Below, one piece after another: positions 15,844 to 59,731 of a DNA stretch of 64,000 nt. This DNA is from an uncultured Gammaproteobacteria bacterium (GTDB taxonomy: Bacteria; Patescibacteriota; Patescibacteriia; Magasanikbacterales; GWA2-37-8), in contig CAYHBZ010000002.1 in NCBI GenBank assembly GCA_964355175.1, positions 332,537 to 396,536 of the forward strand, in the 5' to 3' direction. Both the position numbers and the translations under genes were made by a program. The first letter of the stretch is position 1; each line of letters opens with the position of its first letter. The notes under the pieces were generated by a model. That model was not told where the DNA came from. It ran no database searches and saw only the letters and a list, made by a program, of their open reading frames with translations.

Positions 15844-16118
15844 GGGCAGATACCAAAGTGGCTAACTGGGGCAGACTGTGAACAATTGCAGCTCTTAGAG
15901 GTAACTCTAGGATGAACTCTCTGGGATAACGGTGAAAGCTAATGGGGGTGCTAATACCGTGGGAACTTCGCAACGTGCGGAGAGCGCCGTAGAGACTAGA
16001 TACCAGAGTATCCCGATTCAGTTGGGATAAAGATATAGTCCATGCCGTAAGGAAACTTATGGATAAGTGAAATCTGCTGGCTCCGCCTTCGTAGGTTCGA
16101 ATCCTACTCTGCCCACCA
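15844..16118 (+). tRNA. tRNA-Tyr(GUA) split by a group I intron in the anticodon loop (exons 15844-15879 and 16070-16118, CCA encoded)
   Basis: The joined exons read GGGCAGA-UA-CCAA..UGGG-G-CAGAC-U-GUA-AA-UCUGC-UGGCUCCGCCUUC-GUAGGUUCGAAUCCUAC-UCUGCCC-A-CCA. This is a type II tRNA with a long variable arm. The anticodon stem-loop GCAGACUGUAAAUCUGC is identical to bacterial tRNA-Tyr. Confidence 0.75.
15880..16069 (+). other. group I self-splicing intron (IC3-like, ~190 nt) within tRNA-Tyr
   Basis: The conserved S element AAGAUAUAGUCC matches the group I consensus exactly at 16029-16041. The R-like element GUAGAGACUAGAUA at 15989-16002 supplies the P7 pairing GACUA/UAGUC. The 5' exon ends in U, which can pair with the internal guide GCAG near the intron start. 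The intron ends in G just before the 3' exon. Confidence 0.7.
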
Positions 16119-23332: not shown

Positions 23333-23340
23333 TAAAAAAA

Positions 23341-23367
23341 TTCTCCATTATCTGGAGAATTTTTTTT
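23341..23367 (+). terminator. rho-independent terminator
   Basis: TTCTCCA-TTATC-TGGAGAA then T8. Confidence 0.8.
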
Positions 23368-23454
23368 CTACCACTGTCGACAAAATTTTGACTGCAAAGG
23401 TAGGCCGCACATCCTACCTCCTTTGGTTGGTGTGCGGGTAAATGACATGGTATC

Positions 23455-24204
23455 TCAGGTGCCGTACTGGGCGTGCTGGCGAAGTTGCTCCAGTTCCGCG
23501 GAGGTAGTCTCGATTTCTTCTGGATTCGCTTTCGCGTTTTCCAGAAGAGTCAGGACTTTGTCCACGGCCGTGCTGGCTTCGTCGCTTGACCAGTGCTTGC
23601 GTTTGCGTAGACGTGAAACCTCTCTCTGAGCTTGTCGCAGATAGGCCGACCTGATCCAGCTACGCCATCTTTCAATGTTTTGCCGGACGTAGGCGGGATC
23701 AGAGTAGTCGATGAGACTTGCCAGGATGTCGCCCGGCGAAGTATTGATCCAAGCTTTGTCTGGATACCTCTCCAGAGCCTGCTCGAGAATGTCCACGCGG
23801 CAGTTCAAGTACGCCGTCAGCATCTGTTCTTCCGAGAAAGGAGAGATGTCGACGTGCTTGAGCTTGAACAGCCTACAAATTCTTTTGACCTCCTTGATTT
23901 CGGTCAAGAAGTTTTCTCTCGCTGCCAGTGCTTCTGGCAACGATCTGGAGCTGCTCGACATCAGATCTGCACACCACACCGTGAGGTAGTGGCGAGCGAG
24001 TTGACGGCGTTCGTCTTCGTTCACGTGGCCCTTGAGATCCTGCAACTTCTGCAGTGCATCTTTCGGGTCGTTCCAGTTGCGCTCACCCAGCTCGGCGATG
24101 ATTTCTTGGTGTGCTTGTTTACGTTTCTTGGCGCGGTGCTTCTTGGCCATCACTGCGATGATGAAGACGCACGCGATAAATGCAACAATAACGGTGAGTT
24201 CCAT
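23455..24204 (-). CDS. orphan membrane-anchored protein encoded in high-GC islet 1
   Basis: 249 aa with an N-terminal TM helix, then a charged helical domain. GC is ~58% against ~38% in the flanks, with GC-rich third codon positions. No motif I recognise. Confidence 0.5.
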   Translation of the reverse strand: MELTVIVAFIACVFIIAVMAKKHRAKKRKQAHQEIIAELGERNWNDPKDALQKLQDLKGHVNEDERRQLARHYLTVWCADLMSSSSRSLPEALAARENFLTEIKEVKRICRLFKLKHVDISPFSEEQMLTAYLNCRVDILEQALERYPDKAWINTSPGDILASLIDYSDPAYVRQNIERWRSWIRSAYLRQAQREVSRLRKRKHWSSDEASTAVDKVLTLLENAKANPEEIETTSAELEQLRQHAQYGT

Positions 24205-24336
24205 TTGCCCCCCCTAGTAGAACTTTGTAGGCAGTAGACACCATGTCTAAAAGCCAAAATAAGTTGGTAGCTAAATACTGTATATTCGCTTACCAACCGA
24301 TTTTGGACTATTGTAAAAAGAACACGAATTTGGCGA

Positions 24337-24365
24337 ATTATAGCACAAAAGTTAGTTTTTGTCAA
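24337..24365 (-). promoter_or_regulatory. consensus sigma70 promoter (TTGACA-17-TATAAT) for the islet 1 gene
   Basis: The reverse complement reads cTTGACAaaaactaacttttgtgcTATAATtcg, about 130 nt upstream of the start at 24204. Confidence 0.5.
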
Positions 24366-24482
24366 GTATTTTAGCTGTTATTAGCCAAAAAATATCTCTT
24401 TAGATAGCCTTGTTTTTTCATAGACCGTATGGTAATATAAAAGCTCAAAAGACTCCTGTTTTTGTTTTTAATCTAGCTTTTT

Positions 24483-27356: not shown

Positions 27357-27469
27357 TACAAAAAATTGACTTTTTTATAAATTAGTTTAATATATTCTCA
27401 AGTTTCCATCTGGCTATGGTATGCATGTCGCATACTTGGCATGAGAAGGAAAAGCCTGGGGGGATTATC

Positions 27470-27934
27470 ATGGACTTCGCTCTTACCCGCGGTTTTCGCA
27501 TTGCCGCGGAGATCATCATCATCCTGTCGGTGATCAGCATGGCGCTCGAGTGCATCGTGCTGTCTCTGGGTCTGTCCACGATGGCGGATCTGTCACACTA
27601 CATGGTCTCGACCGCCTTTTCGGCGTTCGTCGGCGGTGTCATGTGGTGGTATTTCGGTCTCCGCCACAACGCCTCCGTGATCAAGGCGTTGAAGTACTGG
27701 CGCGACGAGTTTCCACCGGTGGATTCTGTCGGGCTGTTTCTCGGGGTGACCTTCGTGATCATCTTCGTTCTGGTGTCGCTGTCGCAGCTCGTGCGCTGGG
27801 TCCTGCAGACTCACGCTGGTCTGGAGAGCTGGTGGATCCAGAACATGGTGATTGCCTTGGCTGCTTCTGCCATGTTCCTTCTAGCCATCGTGGCCGATGC
27901 TGTGCGTAGAAGGATGATTGACGGTCGCGATTGA
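27470..27934 (+). CDS. orphan 4-TM membrane protein encoded in high-GC islet 2 (alternative start 27416)
   Basis: ~60% GC. Four hydrophobic helices. TTGACT-16-TAATAT promoter at 27366-27393. The ATG at 27470 follows GGGGGGATTATC. Confidence 0.45.
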   Translation: MDFALTRGFRIAAEIIIILSVISMALECIVLSLGLSTMADLSHYMVSTAFSAFVGGVMWWYFGLRHNASVIKALKYWRDEFPPVDSVGLFLGVTFVIIFVLVSLSQLVRWVLQTHAGLESWWIQNMVIALAASAMFLLAIVADAVRRRMIDGRD

Positions 27935-28142
27935 GGTGGCGCGTCTTCGAACAAGAAGGAGGGACATGTCCATTCGTGCTCCGCCCCCAATAGGGGCGGC
28001 AGTGAGGAGGAAGAAACCATCGACCACCAAACTGCTTTTCATCTAAATGTACATTTGGATATAGAGCAGAGTGGTCGATGGTTTTTTTGTTTAGTTATGT
28101 TATAATATTTATTGAAGAAATATATTTATTACAGAATTAATT

Positions 28143-33249: not shown

Positions 33250-33255
33250 AATTAA

Positions 33256-33281
33256 AGCCCTCAGTGATGAGGGCTTTTTGT
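33256..33281 (+). terminator. rho-independent terminator
   Basis: AGCCCTCA-GTGA-TGAGGGCT then TTTTTG. Confidence 0.8.
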
Positions 33282-33311
33282 TTAATCTAAAGCAAAATAA
33301 AGGCAAATAGA

Positions 33312-33340
33312 TTGACAAAACCACTATTTTATGCTATACT
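33312..33340 (+). promoter_or_regulatory. near-consensus sigma70 promoter (TTGACA-17-TATACT) for the islet 3 gene
   Basis: aTTGACAaaaccactattttatgcTATACTatt. A perfect 16-bp-arm palindrome follows at 33392-33438. Confidence 0.5.
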
Positions 33341-33501
33341 ATTCAGTTAGTTCTTTTATAACTATAATGACCAAGTCGTACCAAAAGAGGTAATGGGTAT
33401 CATATATTTCTAAAAAATAGGAATATATGATACCCATTTGCCTCCGGAACTTTTTCCTGAGGCGTTCGTTGGCTGGGTGCCAACATCCTTCAGGAGACAA
33501 G

Positions 33502-33909
33502 ATGAATCCCTCGGTTACTTATTGTGTGATTCTCGTCCGTGATGTGGTGGATGAAGAAGGGCGGAAGGAAGAGTACGAATCGCCGTTTGTTGTGACCAAG
33601 GAGTCACAGTGGTCGTTCGGGTTCTTGCCCGAAACGGACCAGGAGATCCGCTTCGGCGAATTCGGTGACAACGAGAAGGAGACCATCGCCAATGTAACCA
33701 TGACCAGGATCTATCCCGACAGTGGGCGGATGGTTATCTTTTGCAAGGTCAAGTACATGTGGGACATGCAGAGGTTGCGCACGCAGGGTTGGACGCTCGA
33801 AGGCTCTGTCCGTCTCGGTGCACCGGAGGTGGAAGTCCTGTACCAATGGCACCTCAATTGGGCGGATAATGGCTATAAGGACAAGGATCTCCAAGAAGCG
33901 GAGTTCTAG
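33502..33909 (+). CDS. orphan soluble protein encoded in high-GC islet 3 (alternative start 33427)
   Basis: ~57% GC. Starts MNPSVTYCVIL.. with the Shine-Dalgarno CAGGAGAC just upstream. No motif I recognise. Confidence 0.45.
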   Translation: MNPSVTYCVILVRDVVDEEGRKEEYESPFVVTKESQWSFGFLPETDQEIRFGEFGDNEKETIANVTMTRIYPDSGRMVIFCKVKYMWDMQRLRTQGWTLEGSVRLGAPEVEVLYQWHLNWADNGYKDKDLQEAEF

Positions 33910-34085
33910 TCCTCTGTCGTCAGCCCAACAGCCCCACTCGCTACAAGCGGGCAGTGGGGCAGACGCGGTAGATATCACTCGCCGCGCAATTTGAAAATAA
34001 CATATTTGTTTTCAGATTGTGCGAGTGATATAAACGCTTAAAAAATAAAACACACCAATTAAATTTGGTGTGTTTTTTGTTTTGT

Positions 34086-37655: not shown

Positions 37656-38265
37656 ATTTCCAAGTTAGTGAATCGTTATTTTTTAAAATATAATTTGAGA
37701 TGCCCGTTTGCGCCGGTTTGCTATTGAGGTAGTAGATCCAGTATTTGCCGGCATTCTTATCGGTTTTGACTCCATCGATTTCATCTACGAAATATCCTAG
37801 GCTAGAAAATGGTTTGAAAATGGCAGTGATTTTTTTCTCGTCTACCAGCTGTGCCATCGCGTCATAGGCCGTAGATTTTTCGGCCATCAGCAATGAATAG
37901 TTTTGGCCGTTAATTATTATCGTAACACTCAGAGTATTTTTTTCTGGAATTGGAGTGGTGGTTGGGGTGGCTTCGGAAGGTGTGTCAGTCGCCACGTTAG
38001 AATTTTTTTGTTCAGGCTGTCTGGTTTCTTTTTTCTGTTCCGGTACGGTCAGAGTGGTGTTGGTGGCGACATCAGACCAAGGCAGACTTTGCGCCACAGG
38101 AGCGGGCGAGACTGGTTTGGGTGTCGCGGCTTTATTTGGCAGTAGCAGATAGGCGCCGCTAGCTAGGGCCATGAATATTAGGACCATCCAGAGCCGCGTT
38201 AGGTGTTTGTTATGCATATTGTTATTTAAAAAAGAAAAAACCCTTTCCCGGGAGAAAAGATTCAA
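37636..38265 (-). CDS. secreted/anchored DUF4430-domain protein (transcobalamin beta-domain-like)
   Basis: C-terminal ..SAYDAMAQLVDEKK..GYFVDEIDG..KYWIYYLNS..WKYEV.. matches the DUF4430 pattern. N-terminal TM helix and a Pro/Thr-rich linker. Overlaps the start of the giant surface-protein gene by 20 nt. Confidence 0.55.
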   Translation of the reverse strand: MNLFSRERVFSFLNNNMHNKHLTRLWMVLIFMALASGAYLLLPNKAATPKPVSPAPVAQSLPWSDVATNTTLTVPEQKKETRQPEQKNSNVATDTPSEATPTTTPIPEKNTLSVTIIINGQNYSLLMAEKSTAYDAMAQLVDEKKITAIFKPFSSLGYFVDEIDGVKTDKNAGKYWIYYLNSKPAQTGISNYILKNNDSLTWKYEVPQF

Positions 38266-38447
38266 AAATAGAACATTCCTGCTCGGGAAGAACTATTATT
38301 TGAAGACCGGACTTGTTCTCGACTTAGTCGAGACTTTACCGTTGCGGCACAGTGGAGGAATTGACCTCACTTCCACAAATAATAGGTTAAATTGTATGTA
38401 TAAACTATCAGGGTTCTAAGGCACTGTCAAAGCGGGTGTGGATAAGT

Positions 38448-42981: not shown

Positions 42982-42992
42982 AGGGCTATATT

Positions 42993-45554
42993 CTACAGGG
43001 AAACTTCACTCATATCAATACCAGTAGTTGGCTTGGAAACACCCAGCTGGGCGCGTTCGGCAATTTCGGCTTCCACGATTTCACGCGCGCGTCCATATTT
43101 GAGACGAGAGAGCTCTTTTATCGCTTCGGCCAGTTCTTTATTGCCTGGTTTTGGCGGATAGGTCATCATGTTGAATGGTTTGGCGGCGGTGTTGTCGATC
43201 AATAATTTTGTATAGGCAGTATATTGCTCCACATTTACCAAATCATAGGCGGAGAAAACCGGAGCAAATTCTTTTTGTAAAATATCGGCGTCTTCCACAC
43301 CGATGCGGAAAGAAACAATGGTACCGGCGTTACCAAGTACGGCGTCGCGCACGGCGGATTTGCCTTTGTTATCTTCCAATTGTTTCATGTATTGATGGGC
43401 GATGATTAGTTCAAGACGATATTTACGCGCCTCGGAAAGAATGGTGGCGATAGAATCAGTAATAAAGTTTTGGAACTCATCAATATATAGATAGAAGTCA
43501 TGGCGCTGATCCTCGGGCATATTGGCGCGCTCTAGAGCAGCCATCTGTAATTTGGACACGATAATCATACCCAAAAGATTGGAGTTGATTTCGCCGGTCA
43601 AACCTTTGGCCAGATTTACAATCAAAATTTTCTTTTGATCCATCACTTCACGGAAATTAAAACCGGAATGAGATTGGCCAATAATATTACGCACCATCGC
43701 GTTTTCAGTAAAACGGCCTACTTTGGAAATCAAATAACCCAACATTTCTGATTTGTGAAAATCTGAAGTCTTGGCCATTTCTTTTTCCCAGAAAGCCAGT
43801 ACCACCGGATCGTTTAATTTCTTTTTCCATTTGGCTACATAAGTATCGTCGGTAAACATGCGTGGTACTTCGGCGATAGTGCCTGGAGTCTCCATATCAG
43901 CCATCAAAGTCAACATCACATTGCGCATTTGGTGTTCAAACATCGGGCCGATCATCGATGGGTCCGTCACCATTTTATAGAAGATTGCGATCATTTCCTG
44001 AGTAGCAAAATCTTTTTGTCCCTCGGTTTTTACTTCAAGCATATTCAGCCCTATTGGACGATCGGTATCGGATGGATTGAAATAAATAACATCATCCGCG
44101 CGTTCTTTTGGTACGTGTTGTAACACATATTCGGCAAAGTCACCGTGCGGATCGATAATACAAACACCTTCGCCGTTTTGCACATCCTGGATAGCAAGAT
44201 TTTGGATGAACACGGATTTACCGGAACCAGATTTACCAATGGTATAAAGATGGCGACGACGATCATCACGTTTCATTTTTACTATAATTTCCTGACCGCG
44301 ATAAACCGAACGGCCCAAAATAATACCATCGGTAGGCATGTTGGTTGGTGGGGGAGCTTTGCGTGCGCCGAGCCAGTTGATATGTGGAGTTTCGGTATTT
44401 GGTACTGGCATATGCCAGAGCGAGGCCATCTCTTCGGTATTTACTACCATATAACGATTCGCATCCGGGGAGCGGTAGATGGATTCGCGAATAATTTTAT
44501 TCTGATTTTTTGGTACGGCCGCGCCAAAGGAATTGCCGTAGCGATAGATATTATATTGCGAAAAAGAATTCACGATATTTTCCAAATTCATTTTGGCCTT
44601 TTGTTGGCTGTCGGAGGAGCTCACCAAGCGTACCGTTAATTCCAGCCCGCCGTGAGAAATTTTTTCTTCCATGGTTTTCACCATTTCTTCTTCCATTTGG
44701 GTGAGATGATATTCTTTGGCACCACCATGAGCCGCGTCTTTATTTTTTGGAAAAAGTATTTTACCCCATTTGCTCAGAGAGCGCACAAAGGCACTGCGAC
44801 GAGCGACATATTCAAATTTTTGTCCCTCGCGAATGTCGCGGATCATGTGCACGCCCTGTTTGCGCCATTTGGAGGTGGCCGGACGAACGATATATTGTAA
44901 CAACGCGCCTTCGTTTTCAGATATTTTGCTTAGTGGATTGAGGATCGACAAAAGAGGATCGGCATCCATTTTTTTGAAAGTTTTTAGCGGGAATGCCGAG
45001 CGGCTTTTGAGAAATAAAGAAGCGGCCATGATATGACTCTGTGGTTTGAAAAGATTATAATCGGTTTCCACGGAAATTTCAGCGTGCGGATATTGAGCGT
45101 GAATTTGTTGCTCCACAAAATCTTTCCATTTGTCTGGGATAGCGACATAAAAAGAAATTTTGGCGTCTTTGACTACGATTTCAAAAGACAGGTGATCATT
45201 GCGTCCAAAAAACCATTTGGAAAATCCTTTGTCGGCTTTGAGGCCGGCGATAGCCGAAAACATGGTATCGGCAATGGCAATATATTCGCGGGTCTGAGTA
45301 ATATTTTGTTCGTTGCCGGATTGATTTTGGGTACTGTCACTCTTTTTTTCTTTTGGCACTTTGATCAATATGATGGTGCGATGAAAGGCTTTGCCTTCGT
45401 GATTGGTGGCCTGAAAAATCGCTCGCGCTAAAAATATCAAACCAATAAGCACGGCCCAACCGGCTACAAACAAAAAGCCGGCCAAGAATACAGGCTGTTG
45501 AATTCCATCCGCGAACCAGTTGGATAGGTATGTAAATAGGGAGCCGGAGTCCAT
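42993..45554 (-). CDS. TraD/TraG/VirD4-family type IV secretion coupling-protein-like ATPase with a large N-terminal membrane-anchored domain
   Basis: Walker A (YTIGKSGSGKS), Walker B (LYIDEFQNF), and a C-terminal TraG-D_C-like region (..IIAHQYMKQLED..GNAGTIVSFRIG..). The N-terminal ~450 aa is paralogous to ORF 31825..33249. Confidence 0.7.
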   Translation of the reverse strand: MDSGSLFTYLSNWFADGIQQPVFLAGFLFVAGWAVLIGLIFLARAIFQATNHEGKAFHRTIILIKVPKEKKSDSTQNQSGNEQNITQTREYIAIADTMFSAIAGLKADKGFSKWFFGRNDHLSFEIVVKDAKISFYVAIPDKWKDFVEQQIHAQYPHAEISVETDYNLFKPQSHIMAASLFLKSRSAFPLKTFKKMDADPLLSILNPLSKISENEGALLQYIVRPATSKWRKQGVHMIRDIREGQKFEYVARRSAFVRSLSKWGKILFPKNKDAAHGGAKEYHLTQMEEEMVKTMEEKISHGGLELTVRLVSSSDSQQKAKMNLENIVNSFSQYNIYRYGNSFGAAVPKNQNKIIRESIYRSPDANRYMVVNTEEMASLWHMPVPNTETPHINWLGARKAPPPTNMPTDGIILGRSVYRGQEIIVKMKRDDRRRHLYTIGKSGSGKSVFIQNLAIQDVQNGEGVCIIDPHGDFAEYVLQHVPKERADDVIYFNPSDTDRPIGLNMLEVKTEGQKDFATQEMIAIFYKMVTDPSMIGPMFEHQMRNVMLTLMADMETPGTIAEVPRMFTDDTYVAKWKKKLNDPVVLAFWEKEMAKTSDFHKSEMLGYLISKVGRFTENAMVRNIIGQSHSGFNFREVMDQKKILIVNLAKGLTGEINSNLLGMIIVSKLQMAALERANMPEDQRHDFYLYIDEFQNFITDSIATILSEARKYRLELIIAHQYMKQLEDNKGKSAVRDAVLGNAGTIVSFRIGVEDADILQKEFAPVFSAYDLVNVEQYTAYTKLLIDNTAAKPFNMMTYPPKPGNKELAEAIKELSRLKYGRAREIVEAEIAERAQLGVSKPTTGIDMSEVSL

Positions 45555-45562
45555 CTTCTTAA

Positions 45563-59196: not shown

Positions 59197-59224
59197 AATC
59201 CTCCAATAATTTGGGGGATTTTTT
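59197..59224 (+). terminator. rho-independent terminator
   Basis: AATCCTCCAA-TAAT-TTGGGGGATT plus T-run. Confidence 0.8.
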
Positions 59225-59318
59225 AATAGTGTAGTTCTGGCCGGCCCCCAACTACTTCAGCATTTGGACCTTGCGGTCCGTGTGCCTTTTCGTCGGGGGC
59301 CGGGTGGCAGGAACTTCT

Positions 59319-59588
59319 TCAGGCAGCGACGCTACGCATCTTGTCCGCGTGCAGGGTCTGGCTGCTAGAACGCAGCGAGCCGCTGATGTGCCGCAGGCCA
59401 GGCTTTTCGCCCAGACTCACGCAGAGCTCAGGACCCGACAGTACGCCCTTGAGCGCCAGGGTGAGTTGGTGCCCGCGTTCCATGTAGACCACGGTGAGGT
59501 GCTCGCCCCAGTCGGTGATGATCGTATGGCCACACTTGAGTTGGGGCCAGTTGTTCCGCGTGAGATCGCGGGCATTGAAGGTCGTCAT
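59319..59588 (-). CDS. orphan protein encoded in high-GC islet 4
   Basis: ~60% GC. Probable start at MTTFNARDL. The longer track ORF starts inside the promoter. TTGACA-17-TATAAG promoter at 59649-59677 on the minus strand. Confidence 0.4.
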   Translation of the reverse strand: MTTFNARDLTRNNWPQLKCGHTIITDWGEHLTVVYMERGHQLTLALKGVLSGPELCVSLGEKPGLRHISGSLRSSSQTLHADKMRSVAA

Positions 59589-59731
59589 TGTCGTGCCTTT
59601 GCTTGAGGTTGTTCTTGCCACACCATCCGGCTTTGGATGGATGTCATACTTATATACTAAAATAGCCATTTTGTCAATCTAGAAACAAAAAAATCTGTTC
59701 TTTTTAAACAGATTTATAAGTCGCTGATAAG

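What the first reader, a model, noticed from the sequence alone, without database searches (positions are those of the whole stretch)
33392..34031. High-GC islet 3: strong promoter, perfect 16-bp palindrome in the leader, orphan ORF, terminal hairpin and inverted repeat
A near-consensus promoter (TTGACA-17-TATACT, 33312-33340) is followed by a perfect inverted repeat AATGGGTATCATATAT / ATATATGATACCCATT at 33392-33438, about 60 nt upstream of a ~57% GC ORF (33502-33909, with Shine-Dalgarno CAGGAGAC). The islet ends with the hairpin GCCCCACT-cgctacaagcgggc-AGTGGGGC at 33931-33960 and an 11-bp inverted repeat GATATCACTCG..CGAGTGATATC at 33971-34031. The palindrome looks like an operator or RNA regulatory hairpin controlling an acquired gene.
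Basis: seen in the sequence. Interest (0 to 1): 0.65.

Follow-up and report, generated by a model that had tools for sequence, protein, structure and literature searches.

The report
Structured-leader orphan gene in variable islet
The palindrome is a conserved RNA hairpin in the leader of a small, fast-evolving, lineage-restricted gene that sits in a strain-variable slot of a Candidatus Magasanikbacteria chromosome; it is an accessory gene unit of a familiar kind, with unexplained GC-rich codon usage.

Summary
The perfect palindrome is 17 bp, the core of a 27-bp hairpin. ORF GC is 53% (GC3 70%).

The window is a Candidatus Magasanikbacteria (CPR) chromosome. The islet is a self-contained transcription unit between two convergent housekeeping-type genes.

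- **Variable slot.** One 90%-identical relative has an empty site. Others have the same promoter followed by different leaders and small membrane-peptide ORFs.
- **Real but restricted gene.** The 135-aa ORF has one homolog among about 15 billion proteins, at the same site in a sister genome. It is 36% identical where the flanking proteins are 91% identical.
- **RNA, not operator.** In that sister genome the leader hairpin and both 3' hairpins are kept through G·U wobbles and compensatory changes. That points to plus-strand RNA structures, not a DNA operator or mobile-element ends.
- **Translation.** A second leader helix buries the Shine-Dalgarno sequence.

No known family, fold, recombinase or repeat copy was found. 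Best reading: a moron-like accessory unit under post-transcriptional control. A second high-GC islet in the window repeats the pattern of conserved UTRs around a rapidly evolving, GC3-rich clade-specific ORF; two others share the layout. This remains unexplained.

The parts
33254..33277 (.). Bidirectional intrinsic terminator ending the upstream DUF8128 gene; left boundary of the islet
   Evidence: 10-bp stem followed by a T-run. Relatives have a terminator at the same position with a different stem sequence.
33312..33340 (+). Sigma-70-type promoter: -35 TTGACA, 17-nt spacer, extended -10 TGCTATACT. Predicted start site near 33347.
   Evidence: TTGACAAA and TGCTATACT are invariant in six divergent relatives while the surrounding bases vary.
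33387..33445 (+). Leader RNA hairpin: 27 bp with one bulge, containing the 17-bp perfect palindrome 33392-33408 / 33422-33438
   Evidence: All pairs are kept in L005, through 2 compensatory and 4 G·U changes.
33453..33497 (+). Second leader helix that pairs with the Shine-Dalgarno sequence (AGGAG 33492-33496). It contains an inner hairpin at 33468-33484.
   Evidence: the unpaired probability of the SD bases is about 0. The inner hairpin is kept in L005 with compensatory changes (GUUGGC/GCCAAC versus GUCGGU/ACCGAC). SD occlusion is weaker in L005.
33502..33909 (+). Protein-coding gene of 135 aa: soluble, beta-rich N-terminal part followed by C-terminal helices; no known family
   Evidence: One homolog, at the same site in L005. 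Identity by codon position is 0.54/0.64/0.50 and dN/dS is 0.36. The GGAGACAAGATG start context is conserved. Pfam, PHROGs, PADLOC and PDB sequence search gave nothing. Best AlphaFold model pLDDT 77, no fold match.
33931..33960 (+). 3'-UTR GC-rich RNA hairpin 1 (GCCCCACU ... AGUGGGGC)
   Evidence: conserved in L005 and L048, with C-G to U-A compensatory changes at two pairs.
33972..34031 (+). 3'-UTR long RNA hairpin 2: 26 bp, 3-nt bulge, AU-rich top. No following U-run, so it is not a terminator.
   Evidence: compensatory changes at two pairs across the window, L005 and L048.
34047..34083 (.). Bidirectional intrinsic terminator shared with the convergent DUF6580 gene; right boundary of the islet
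   Evidence: Conserved in L002, L005 and L048, with one compensatory pair.

Best explanation
The region 33254-34083 is a self-contained accessory transcription unit, laid out like a phage moron or a genomic islet. It sits in a strain-variable slot between the convergent DUF8128 and DUF6580 genes of a Candidatus Magasanikbacteria chromosome.

**Shown**
- A strong, phylogenetically conserved sigma-70 promoter precedes a leader of about 155 nt.
- A second leader helix buries the Shine-Dalgarno sequence.
- The ORF from 33502 is a real gene for a clade-restricted 135-aa protein. At the amino-acid level it evolves about 9 times faster than its neighbours.
- Two conserved RNA hairpins and a shared terminator form the 3' end.

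**Inferred**
- Control is post-transcriptional. The terminal hairpins protect the mRNA or direct its processing; a continuous helix of 20 bp or more is the classic substrate of bacterial RNase III.
- Translation needs the SD-occluding helix to open or to be cut.
- The protein's role is unknown. Alternative alleles at this slot encode small two-TM peptides behind an attenuator-like leader, and the protein diverges fast. The most likely role is therefore a conflict or interaction function (toxin or immunity-like, or phage or host interaction), not housekeeping.
For: - **Structure of the unit.** Promoter, terminators and hairpins. The hairpin is unique in the window and not expected by chance.
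- **Promoter.** The hexamers are invariant in 6 relatives.
- **Leader hairpin.** All 25 pairs predicted for it in the window/L005 alignment are kept in L005, despite 10 substitutions. Two are compensatory and four are G·U.
- **3' hairpins and terminator.** Six compensatory pairs among 3 sequences.
- **Selection on the UTRs.** The noncoding parts are 71-89% identical between the window and L005. Flank third-codon positions are 65% identical and flank dS is about 1.0.
- **Coding ORF.** One syntenic homolog with pairwise E = 7e-24; dN 0.54 against 0.06 in the flanks; dN/dS 0.36; codon position 2 is the most conserved.
- **SD occlusion.** Unpaired probability about 0.
- **Accessory status.** Empty site in L046; different cassettes in L002, L048, L054 and L078 behind the same promoter; mosaic 3' UTR modules.
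- **Same pattern at islet A.** Protein 54% identical against 93-96% for flanks; UTRs 87.5-95% identical.
Against: - No expression data were available. The start site, the RNA ends and any processing are predictions.
- Covariation rests on only 2 sequences for the leader and 3 for the 3' UTR.
- SD occlusion is strong in the window but only partial in L005.
- The protein has no informative homolog or fold, and only 1 of 5 AlphaFold models was confident. The functional class is a guess from context.
- The unit is in a bacterial chromosome with no phage genes nearby, so 'moron' describes the layout, not membership.
- The high GC3 is not explained by this model.
Confidence: 0.6

Rival explanations
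1. The palindrome is a DNA operator bound by a dimeric repressor that blocks transcription of the islet gene.
For: A perfect 17-bp dyad downstream of a strong promoter.
Against: The dyad is not kept as DNA in L005, where four positions become G·T. The RNA pairing is fully kept there. The element is centred about +66 from the predicted start, not over the promoter. There is no second copy in the window and no adjacent regulator gene.
Confidence: 0.06
2. The islet is a mobile cassette (MITE or IS-like element, or an integron-type gene cassette). Its hairpins would be recombination ends recognised as DNA.
For: Presence/absence polymorphism, with an empty site in L046. Unrelated ORFs occur between conserved structured ends, and modules are mosaic. 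Composition differs from the host.
Against: - There is no target-site duplication. The empty site holds a different single terminator, not a clean excision scar.
- The UTR modules are single-copy and locus-specific across 650 kb of held sequence.
- No integrase, transposase or RT is encoded in the 64-kb window.
- By eye, the hairpin ends show no attC R''/R' (RYYYAAC ... GTTRRRY) pair.
- The G·U covariation favours RNA on the plus strand.
- There are no matches in plasmid or phage collections.
Confidence: 0.1
3. The unit is a toxin-type locus similar to type I toxin-antitoxin systems. It would make a stable, highly structured and translationally silent mRNA for a harmful small protein, activated by processing and countered by an RNA not yet found.
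For: The SD is sequestered and the mRNA ends are heavily structured. Alternative alleles at the same slot encode 65-72-aa two-TM peptides. The promoter is strong. The protein evolves fast.
Against: The window's protein is a 135-aa soluble protein, not a small hydrophobic peptide. No antisense promoter was found in the islet, and no complementary sRNA was identified. PADLOC gave no hit.
Confidence: 0.15
4. The leader is a ligand- or temperature-sensing riboregulator (riboswitch or RNA thermometer) that opens the SD helix in response to a signal.
For: An SD-occluding helix in a conserved structured leader. Relatives carry a terminator/antiterminator design behind the same promoter.
Against: No Rfam family matches, even at permissive thresholds. 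The long near-perfect helix looks like a plain hairpin, not an aptamer. The window's leader has no terminator. SD occlusion is not well conserved in L005.
Confidence: 0.1
5. The high-GC segment is a structured noncoding RNA and the ORF is spurious.
For: A GC-rich island in an AT-rich genome. Folding is strong, with z = -7 to -9 for the UTRs. Several overlapping ORFs lie on both strands.
Against: The ORF is intact and of similar length in L005, with 36% amino-acid identity. Substitutions follow codon position and GC3 greatly exceeds GC2. The SD and start context are conserved. The UTRs are far better conserved than the ORF at the nucleotide level, the opposite of what an ORF-spanning ncRNA would show.
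Confidence: 0.04

Closest known systems
Phage morons (independent promoter-gene-terminator units inserted between conserved genes; reviewed in PMC3594210)
   Same: Its own promoter and terminator, a single small gene, nucleotide composition unlike its neighbours, and presence/absence between close relatives.
   Different: It lies in a bacterial (CPR) chromosome among housekeeping genes, not in a phage or prophage. The promoter and UTRs are older and better conserved than the gene they carry.
Genomic islets (small strain-variable chromosomal insertions)
   Same: A sub-kilobase accessory segment at a fixed intergenic hotspot, with atypical composition.
   Different: There is no sign of recent import: the gene family occurs only in this clade and is syntenic. 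The same 'socket' (promoter, 5' stem, 3' hairpins, terminator) holds different ORFs.
Integron gene cassettes with attC sites
   Same: Unrelated small ORFs, each followed by a conserved imperfect-palindrome structure, expressed from a resident promoter.
   Different: No attC core sites, no integrase in the window, a single cassette per site, ends that are locus-specific, and covariation that indicates RNA and not a folded DNA strand.
Type I toxin-antitoxin mRNAs (hok/sok, tisB/istR, bsrG/SR4)
   Same: A strongly structured, probably stable mRNA with a sequestered SD. Sister alleles encode small two-TM peptides.
   Different: No antitoxin RNA was found, and the window's product is a 135-aa soluble protein.
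5'-UTR stabiliser hairpins and RNase III processing hairpins (ompA leader, T7 R sites, lambda sib)
   Same: Long helices of 20 bp or more bracket the coding region in the UTRs.
   Different: This is an analogy only. No cleavage data exist, and no RNase III gene was looked for outside the window.

Membership tests
Phage moron | Independent transcription unit with its own promoter and terminator | tested here: met
   The promoter is conserved in 6 relatives.
Phage moron | Nucleotide composition differs from the flanking genes | tested here: met
   GC3 is 0.70 against 0.43 in the flanks.
Phage moron | Located in a phage or prophage genome | tested here: not met
   The neighbours are SecA, SecDF, tRNA synthetases, ribosomal proteins and similar. 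There are no phage genes and no hit in phage collections.
Integron gene cassette | attC site with R''/R' core sites (RYYYAAC ... GTTRRRY) at the 3' end | tested here: not met
   By inspection of 33910-34046, the ends of hairpin 2 are ATATCACTCGC / GCGAGTGATAT. GCCCAAC at 33924-33930 has no GTTRRRY partner.
Integron gene cassette | Integron integrase and attI nearby; arrays of cassettes | tested here: not met
   No tyrosine recombinase in the 64-kb window, and a single ORF per site. The rest of the genome was not searched.
IS/MITE-type mobile element | Terminal inverted repeats with target-site duplication; multiple copies | tested here: not met
   No duplication when the empty and filled sites are compared. 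The ends are single-copy in the window and in 650 kb of related loci.
Type I toxin-antitoxin | Small hydrophobic toxin peptide (usually under about 60-70 aa) | tested here: not met
   The window ORF is 135 aa and soluble. Sister alleles in L002, L048, L054 and L078 do fit this feature.
Type I toxin-antitoxin | Antisense or adjacent sRNA complementary to the toxin mRNA | tested here: inconclusive
   No minus-strand promoter in the islet. A trans-encoded RNA elsewhere in the genome cannot be excluded.
Known riboswitch or cis-regulatory RNA family | Match to a curated covariance model | tested here: not met
   Rfam at gathering and permissive thresholds gave only sub-threshold chance hits.
Repressor operator | Dyad-symmetric DNA sequence conserved as DNA in orthologous promoters, overlapping or adjoining the promoter | tested here: not met
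   Four G·T positions break the dyad in L005 while the RNA pairing is kept. The element spans about +41 to +99.
Intrinsic terminator or attenuator (leader hairpin) | Stem immediately followed by a U-run | tested here: not met
   The stem ends at 33445, and the nearest U-run (33455-33459) starts 9-10 nt later. The scan did not call it. The relatives' type II leaders do have a terminator.

The most novel reading that the evidence does not exclude
This Magasanikbacteria clade keeps a set of conserved 'expression sockets', at least four in this 64-kb window. Each has a strong promoter, a 5' stem-loop, 3' RNA hairpins and a terminator. Each hosts a special class of clade-restricted ORFs that evolve very fast, and at some sockets are swapped between relatives. 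These ORFs keep a foreign-looking GC3 of 0.65-0.93 in a genome whose GC3 is about 0.40. The persistent GC3, next to UTRs under purifying selection, would reflect a dedicated process that has not been described. Candidates are recombination-driven GC-biased conversion focused on the ORFs, or selection for mRNAs that resist AU-specific RNases. Ordinary horizontal transfer would not explain it.
Probability: 0.15. Interest if true: 0.8.

Novelty: new variant of a known kind. Interest (0 to 1): 0.45.

Why it matters
CPR (Patescibacteria) genomes are small, and half of their genes have no known function. This locus shows that some of those unknowns form a recognisable class. They are autonomous, strongly promoted units whose RNA ends are conserved while the protein changes quickly or is swapped between relatives.

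- It gives a concrete set of candidate genes for symbiont-host or phage-conflict functions.
- It gives several candidate cis-regulatory RNAs, including a terminator/antiterminator leader in sister strains.
- It poses a clear compositional puzzle: GC3-rich codons are maintained in an AT-rich genome, at least in the deeply diverged two-TM-peptide alleles. This can be tested with complete genomes and metatranscriptomes.

For annotation, the public 160-aa gene call probably starts 25 codons too early.

Tried and rejected
- **Protein homology.** The word-indexed search of 5.8 billion clusters found only the protein itself. The exhaustive HMMER search of 1.84 billion representatives found one true homolog, plus one low-complexity repeat protein that I judged spurious.
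- **RNA families.** Rfam at both thresholds gave nothing.
- **Phage and plasmid collections.** A scan of viral contigs for the 3' hairpin motif gave 0 hits. A promoter-pattern scan returned 18 viral loci, assumed to be generic promoter matches and not examined. tblastn against phages and blastn against plasmids gave no match.
- **Distant relatives.** Forty metagenome loci with flank identity of 62% or less show no obvious high-GC islet just downstream of the gene (GC profile of 34 of them; the next gene was not checked), so they added no sequences for covariation.
- **Contig ends.** I first read contig ends inside islets, and differing gene calls in L054 and L056, as strain heterogeneity. The DNA is identical and the breaks fall at hairpins, so this is an assembler artefact.
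- **Ongoing hypermutation.** Same-strain contigs from different samples are 99.97-100% identical, so this is rejected.
- **Translational selection as the cause of high GC3.** Ribosomal-protein genes reach a GC3 of only 0.52, and the preferred codons differ.
- **N-terminal extension from ATG 33427.**
  - It has no SD.
  - The ATG is buried in the helix.
  - L005 has ATA at that position.
  - By my own codon-by-codon reading of the two sequences, two compensating 1-nt indels put about 13 codons out of register.

Full report
**Observation**

TTGACA-17-TATACT lies at 33312-33340 with an extended -10 TG. It is one of only eight sites scoring at least 11/12 on both strands of the window.
- The perfect inverted repeat is 17 bp (33392-33408 / 33422-33438). 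It is the only perfect hairpin-type repeat of 16 bp or more in 64 kb, against none in 100 block shuffles.
- The repeat extends to 21-nt arms with a single T·G. As RNA it extends to a 27-bp helix at 33387-33445; the whole leader folds with z = -7.0.
- The ORF 33502-33909 follows AGGAG at 33492-33496. Its GC is 0.53 and its GC3 0.70, not about 57%.
- The 3' region holds the hairpin at 33931-33960 and a 26-bp bulged hairpin whose base is ATATCACTCGC / GCGAGTGATAT (33972-33982 / 34021-34031). This region folds with z = -9.2.
- Two bidirectional terminators bracket the unit: 33254-33277 ends the upstream gene, and 34047-34076 is shared with the convergent downstream gene.

**Context**

- The contig is a Candidatus Magasanikbacteria (CPR) chromosome; the longest record is 953,736 bp.
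- The whole window encodes housekeeping functions: SecA, SecDF, tRNA synthetases, ribosomal proteins, DNA ligase and tmRNA. No integrase, transposase or reverse transcriptase is present.
- Genome GC is 41%.
- Four segments stand out at 52-60% GC: about 23.4-24.2 kb, 27.4-28.1 kb, 33.4-34.0 kb and 59.2-59.7 kb.
- Each has the same layout: a TTGAC-type promoter (two score at least 11/12), a leader that is visibly hairpin-structured in islets A and 3, an SD and ORF, a GC-rich hairpin, a long hairpin where present, and a terminator.

**The gene is real but restricted**

- A word-indexed search of 5.8 billion protein clusters found only the protein itself.
- An exhaustive HMMER pass over 1.84 billion representatives found one homolog, P0002. 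It lies at exactly the same site, between DUF8128 and DUF6580, in another genome of the clade (locus L005).
- The two proteins are 34-37% identical, depending on the alignment; pairwise E = 7e-24.
- Identity by codon position is 0.54/0.64/0.50, with dN = 0.54, dS = 1.5 and dN/dS = 0.36.
- The flanking genes are 89-92% identical at the amino-acid level, with dN = 0.06 and dS of about 1.0.
- The start context GGAGACAAGATG is identical in both genomes.
- The public 160-aa call, which starts at ATG 33427, is probably wrong.
  - That ATG lies inside the helix and has no SD.
  - L005 has ATA there.
  - By my own codon-by-codon reading of the two sequences, two compensating 1-nt indels scramble the putative extension.
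- Pfam, PHROGs, PADLOC and PDB sequence search gave nothing.
- One of five AlphaFold models was confident (pLDDT 77). It shows a beta-rich N-terminal part and C-terminal helices, with no significant Foldseek match in PDB or BFVD.

**The hairpins are RNA structures**

- Between the window and L005, the noncoding parts are better conserved than neutral sites.

| Segment | Identity, window vs L005 |
|---|---|
| Promoter | 0.86 |
| Leader | 0.71-0.80 |
| Leader hairpin | 0.77 |
| 3' UTR | 0.89 |
| Terminator | 0.89 |
| ORF | 0.57 |
| Flank third-codon positions | 0.65 |

- In the leader hairpin, 10 positions differ, yet every one of the 25 pairs predicted for it in the window/L005 alignment is kept. 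Two are double compensatory changes (A-U to G-C, C-G to U-A). Four are single changes to G·U.
- G·U pairs form only in plus-strand RNA. On DNA they break the dyad, and on an antisense RNA they become A·C mismatches.
- The inner hairpin of the second leader helix also covaries: GUUGGC/GCCAAC in the window against GUCGGU/ACCGAC in L005.
- Across the window, L005 and L048, the 3' hairpins and the terminator show six pairs with compensatory changes.
- By eye, related cassettes and islet D carry C-GCAA-G (GNRA-type) loops in the equivalent 3' hairpin.
- In the window, the second leader helix (33453-33497) pairs with the SD; the unpaired probability is about 0. In L005 the occlusion is only partial.

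**The slot is variable**

- L046 has a flank protein 90% identical to the window's. Its two genes are separated by 44 nt holding a single terminator, so this is an empty site with no duplication scar.
- L002, L047, L048, L054 and L078 have flank identity of 87-68% (90% for the partial L047). They keep the promoter and the first 45 nt or so of the transcript, including a 5' stem that covaries (GUUAAUUA/UAAUUAAC against GUUAUUUA/UAAAUAAC).
- They then diverge into a different 'type II' design, made of:
  - a unit of about 130 nt ending in a terminator; its 5' arm, CUCUCUCAAA, is complementary to an invariant upstream UUUGAGAGAG;
  - a long hairpin;
  - a 65-72-aa two-TM peptide ORF with GC3 of 0.71-0.93.
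- The modules are mosaic. L048 combines the type II 5' part with the window-type 3' UTR. L002 and L078 share a nearly identical 3' hairpin, although their flank nucleotide identity is 73% and their peptides are 29% identical.
- Thirty-four loci with flank identity of 62% or less show no obvious high-GC islet in the GC profile just downstream of the gene; the identity of the next gene was not checked.
- The UTR modules occur only at this locus across 650 kb of held sequence.

**The pattern is general in this clade**

- Islet A (23455-24204, minus strand) has homologs only in Magasanikbacteria-type contigs, at 51-58% identity.
- In L082 the homolog is syntenic. The protein is 54% identical, against 93-96% for the flanks. 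dN is 0.34 against 0.03-0.05, while dS is similar.
- Its GC3 is 0.64-0.66, against 0.30-0.41 in the flanks. Its UTRs are 87.5% and 95% identical.
- At the site after secA, the window, L002, L046, L054 and L082 carry GC3-rich ORFs with no Pfam hit on record. Other strains carry NUDIX or glyoxalase genes of normal composition there.
- Islet codon usage (CTG/CTC, AAG, ATC, TCG) differs from host usage (TTG, AAA, ATT). Ribosomal-protein genes reach a GC3 of only 0.52, so translational selection does not explain it.
- Same-strain contigs from different samples are 99.97-100% identical, so there is no sign of ongoing hypermutation. Contig breaks inside islets fall at hairpins and are assembly artefacts.

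**Interpretation**

- The best-supported reading is a self-contained accessory transcription unit in a variable intergenic slot. Its layout resembles a phage moron (PMC3594210) or a genomic islet.
- Its expression is governed after transcription by conserved RNA structures.
- Several points are inferred, not shown:
  - the helices stabilise the mRNA or direct its processing (helices of 20 bp or more are classic RNase III substrates, from established knowledge);
  - translation requires the SD helix to open;
  - the protein serves a conflict or interaction role.
- The operator reading fails the conservation test.
- The mobile-cassette reading lacks repeats, duplications, recombinases and attC signatures.
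- The type I toxin reading fits the sister alleles better than it fits this one.
- A pure ncRNA reading is contradicted by the codon-position pattern.
- What remains unexplained is why clade-restricted, fast-evolving ORFs keep a GC3 far above the genome's. For the window/L005 pair, partial amelioration from a GC3 of about 0.9 is possible. For the deeply diverged L002/L078 pair, where GC3 is 0.91-0.93, it is not.

**Verdict**

The element is a new variant of a known kind, of moderate interest. The interest lies mainly in the recurring 'conserved socket, hyper-evolving GC3-rich ORF' pattern.

Noticed in passing
window 23340-24370 (-), 27367-28087 (+), 59200-59680 (-): Three more high-GC islets share the layout: a TTGAC-type promoter (12/12 with extended -10 in islet A; about 10/12 by eye in B and D), a leader (visibly hairpin-structured in A), a GC3-rich ORF with no known family (249, 154 and 89 aa; GC3 0.66-0.80; homologs searched only for islet A), 3' hairpins and a terminator. 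Islet A's homologs are clade-restricted and evolve 7-12 times faster than the flanking genes, between UTRs that are 87.5-95% identical.
   Followed up: partly
L002 7522-7660; L048 7520-7662; L054 7504-7640; L078 4533-4680; L047 7368-7505: Behind the same promoter, sister strains carry a conserved leader of about 130 nt with a nested stem-loop. An invariant UUUGAGAGAG in it is complementary to the 5' arm (CUCUCUCAAA) of a downstream intrinsic terminator. This is a terminator/antiterminator design upstream of 65-72-aa two-TM peptide ORFs. There is no Rfam match, so it is a candidate new attenuator or riboswitch.
   Followed up: partly
L046 6364-6413: Empty site: in a strain whose flank protein is 90% identical, the DUF8128 and DUF6580 genes are separated by only 44 nt holding one terminator.
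   Followed up: yes
window 27935-28087 vs L002 1767-1874: At the site after secA, the 3' UTR (GGGGCGGCAG.GAGGAGGAAGAAAC.ATCGACCACC plus a long terminator hairpin) is conserved between genomes. The ORF upstream of it is replaced by an unrelated one: 154 aa with 4 TM segments in the window, 233 aa in L002.
   Followed up: partly
window 38268-38401 (-): An AdoCbl riboswitch (Rfam 51.9 bits against a gathering score of 50) lies just upstream of the 209-aa ORF called from TTG at 38265 (DUF4430 gene; the public call is 183 aa and starts further downstream). That ORF precedes the 1008-aa Ser/Thr-rich surface protein.
   Followed up: no
window 15850-16062 (+): A group I intron hit just at threshold (50.6 bits against 50), downstream of two tRNA-Thr genes. 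Its host gene was not determined.
   Followed up: no
window about 42990-45560 (-): An 853-aa protein combines a DUF8128 hit with VirD4/TraG-type coupling-ATPase domains. The 474-aa DUF8128 protein next to the islet may therefore be related to a DNA-translocation or type IV-like system.
   Followed up: no
L051-L053 ends; L058 end (= window 34001); L079 end: Several independent metagenome contigs stop inside the islet, at or beside its hairpins (L058 stops exactly at the hairpin-2 apex; the others judged by eye). The overlapping sequence is identical, so these are assembler breaks at inverted repeats, not strain variation.
   Followed up: yes
L003 (CAYUHX010000015.1): This record is titled 'uncultured Gammaproteobacteria bacterium', yet it carries a DUF8128 gene 60% identical to the window's, a family otherwise seen here only in Magasanikbacteria-type contigs. 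The bin label is probably wrong.
   Followed up: no
window 33427-33909 (public call P0001, 160 aa): The public gene call starts 25 codons upstream of the SD-preceded ATG, inside the leader hairpin. The L005 homolog is over-extended in the same way.
   Followed up: yes
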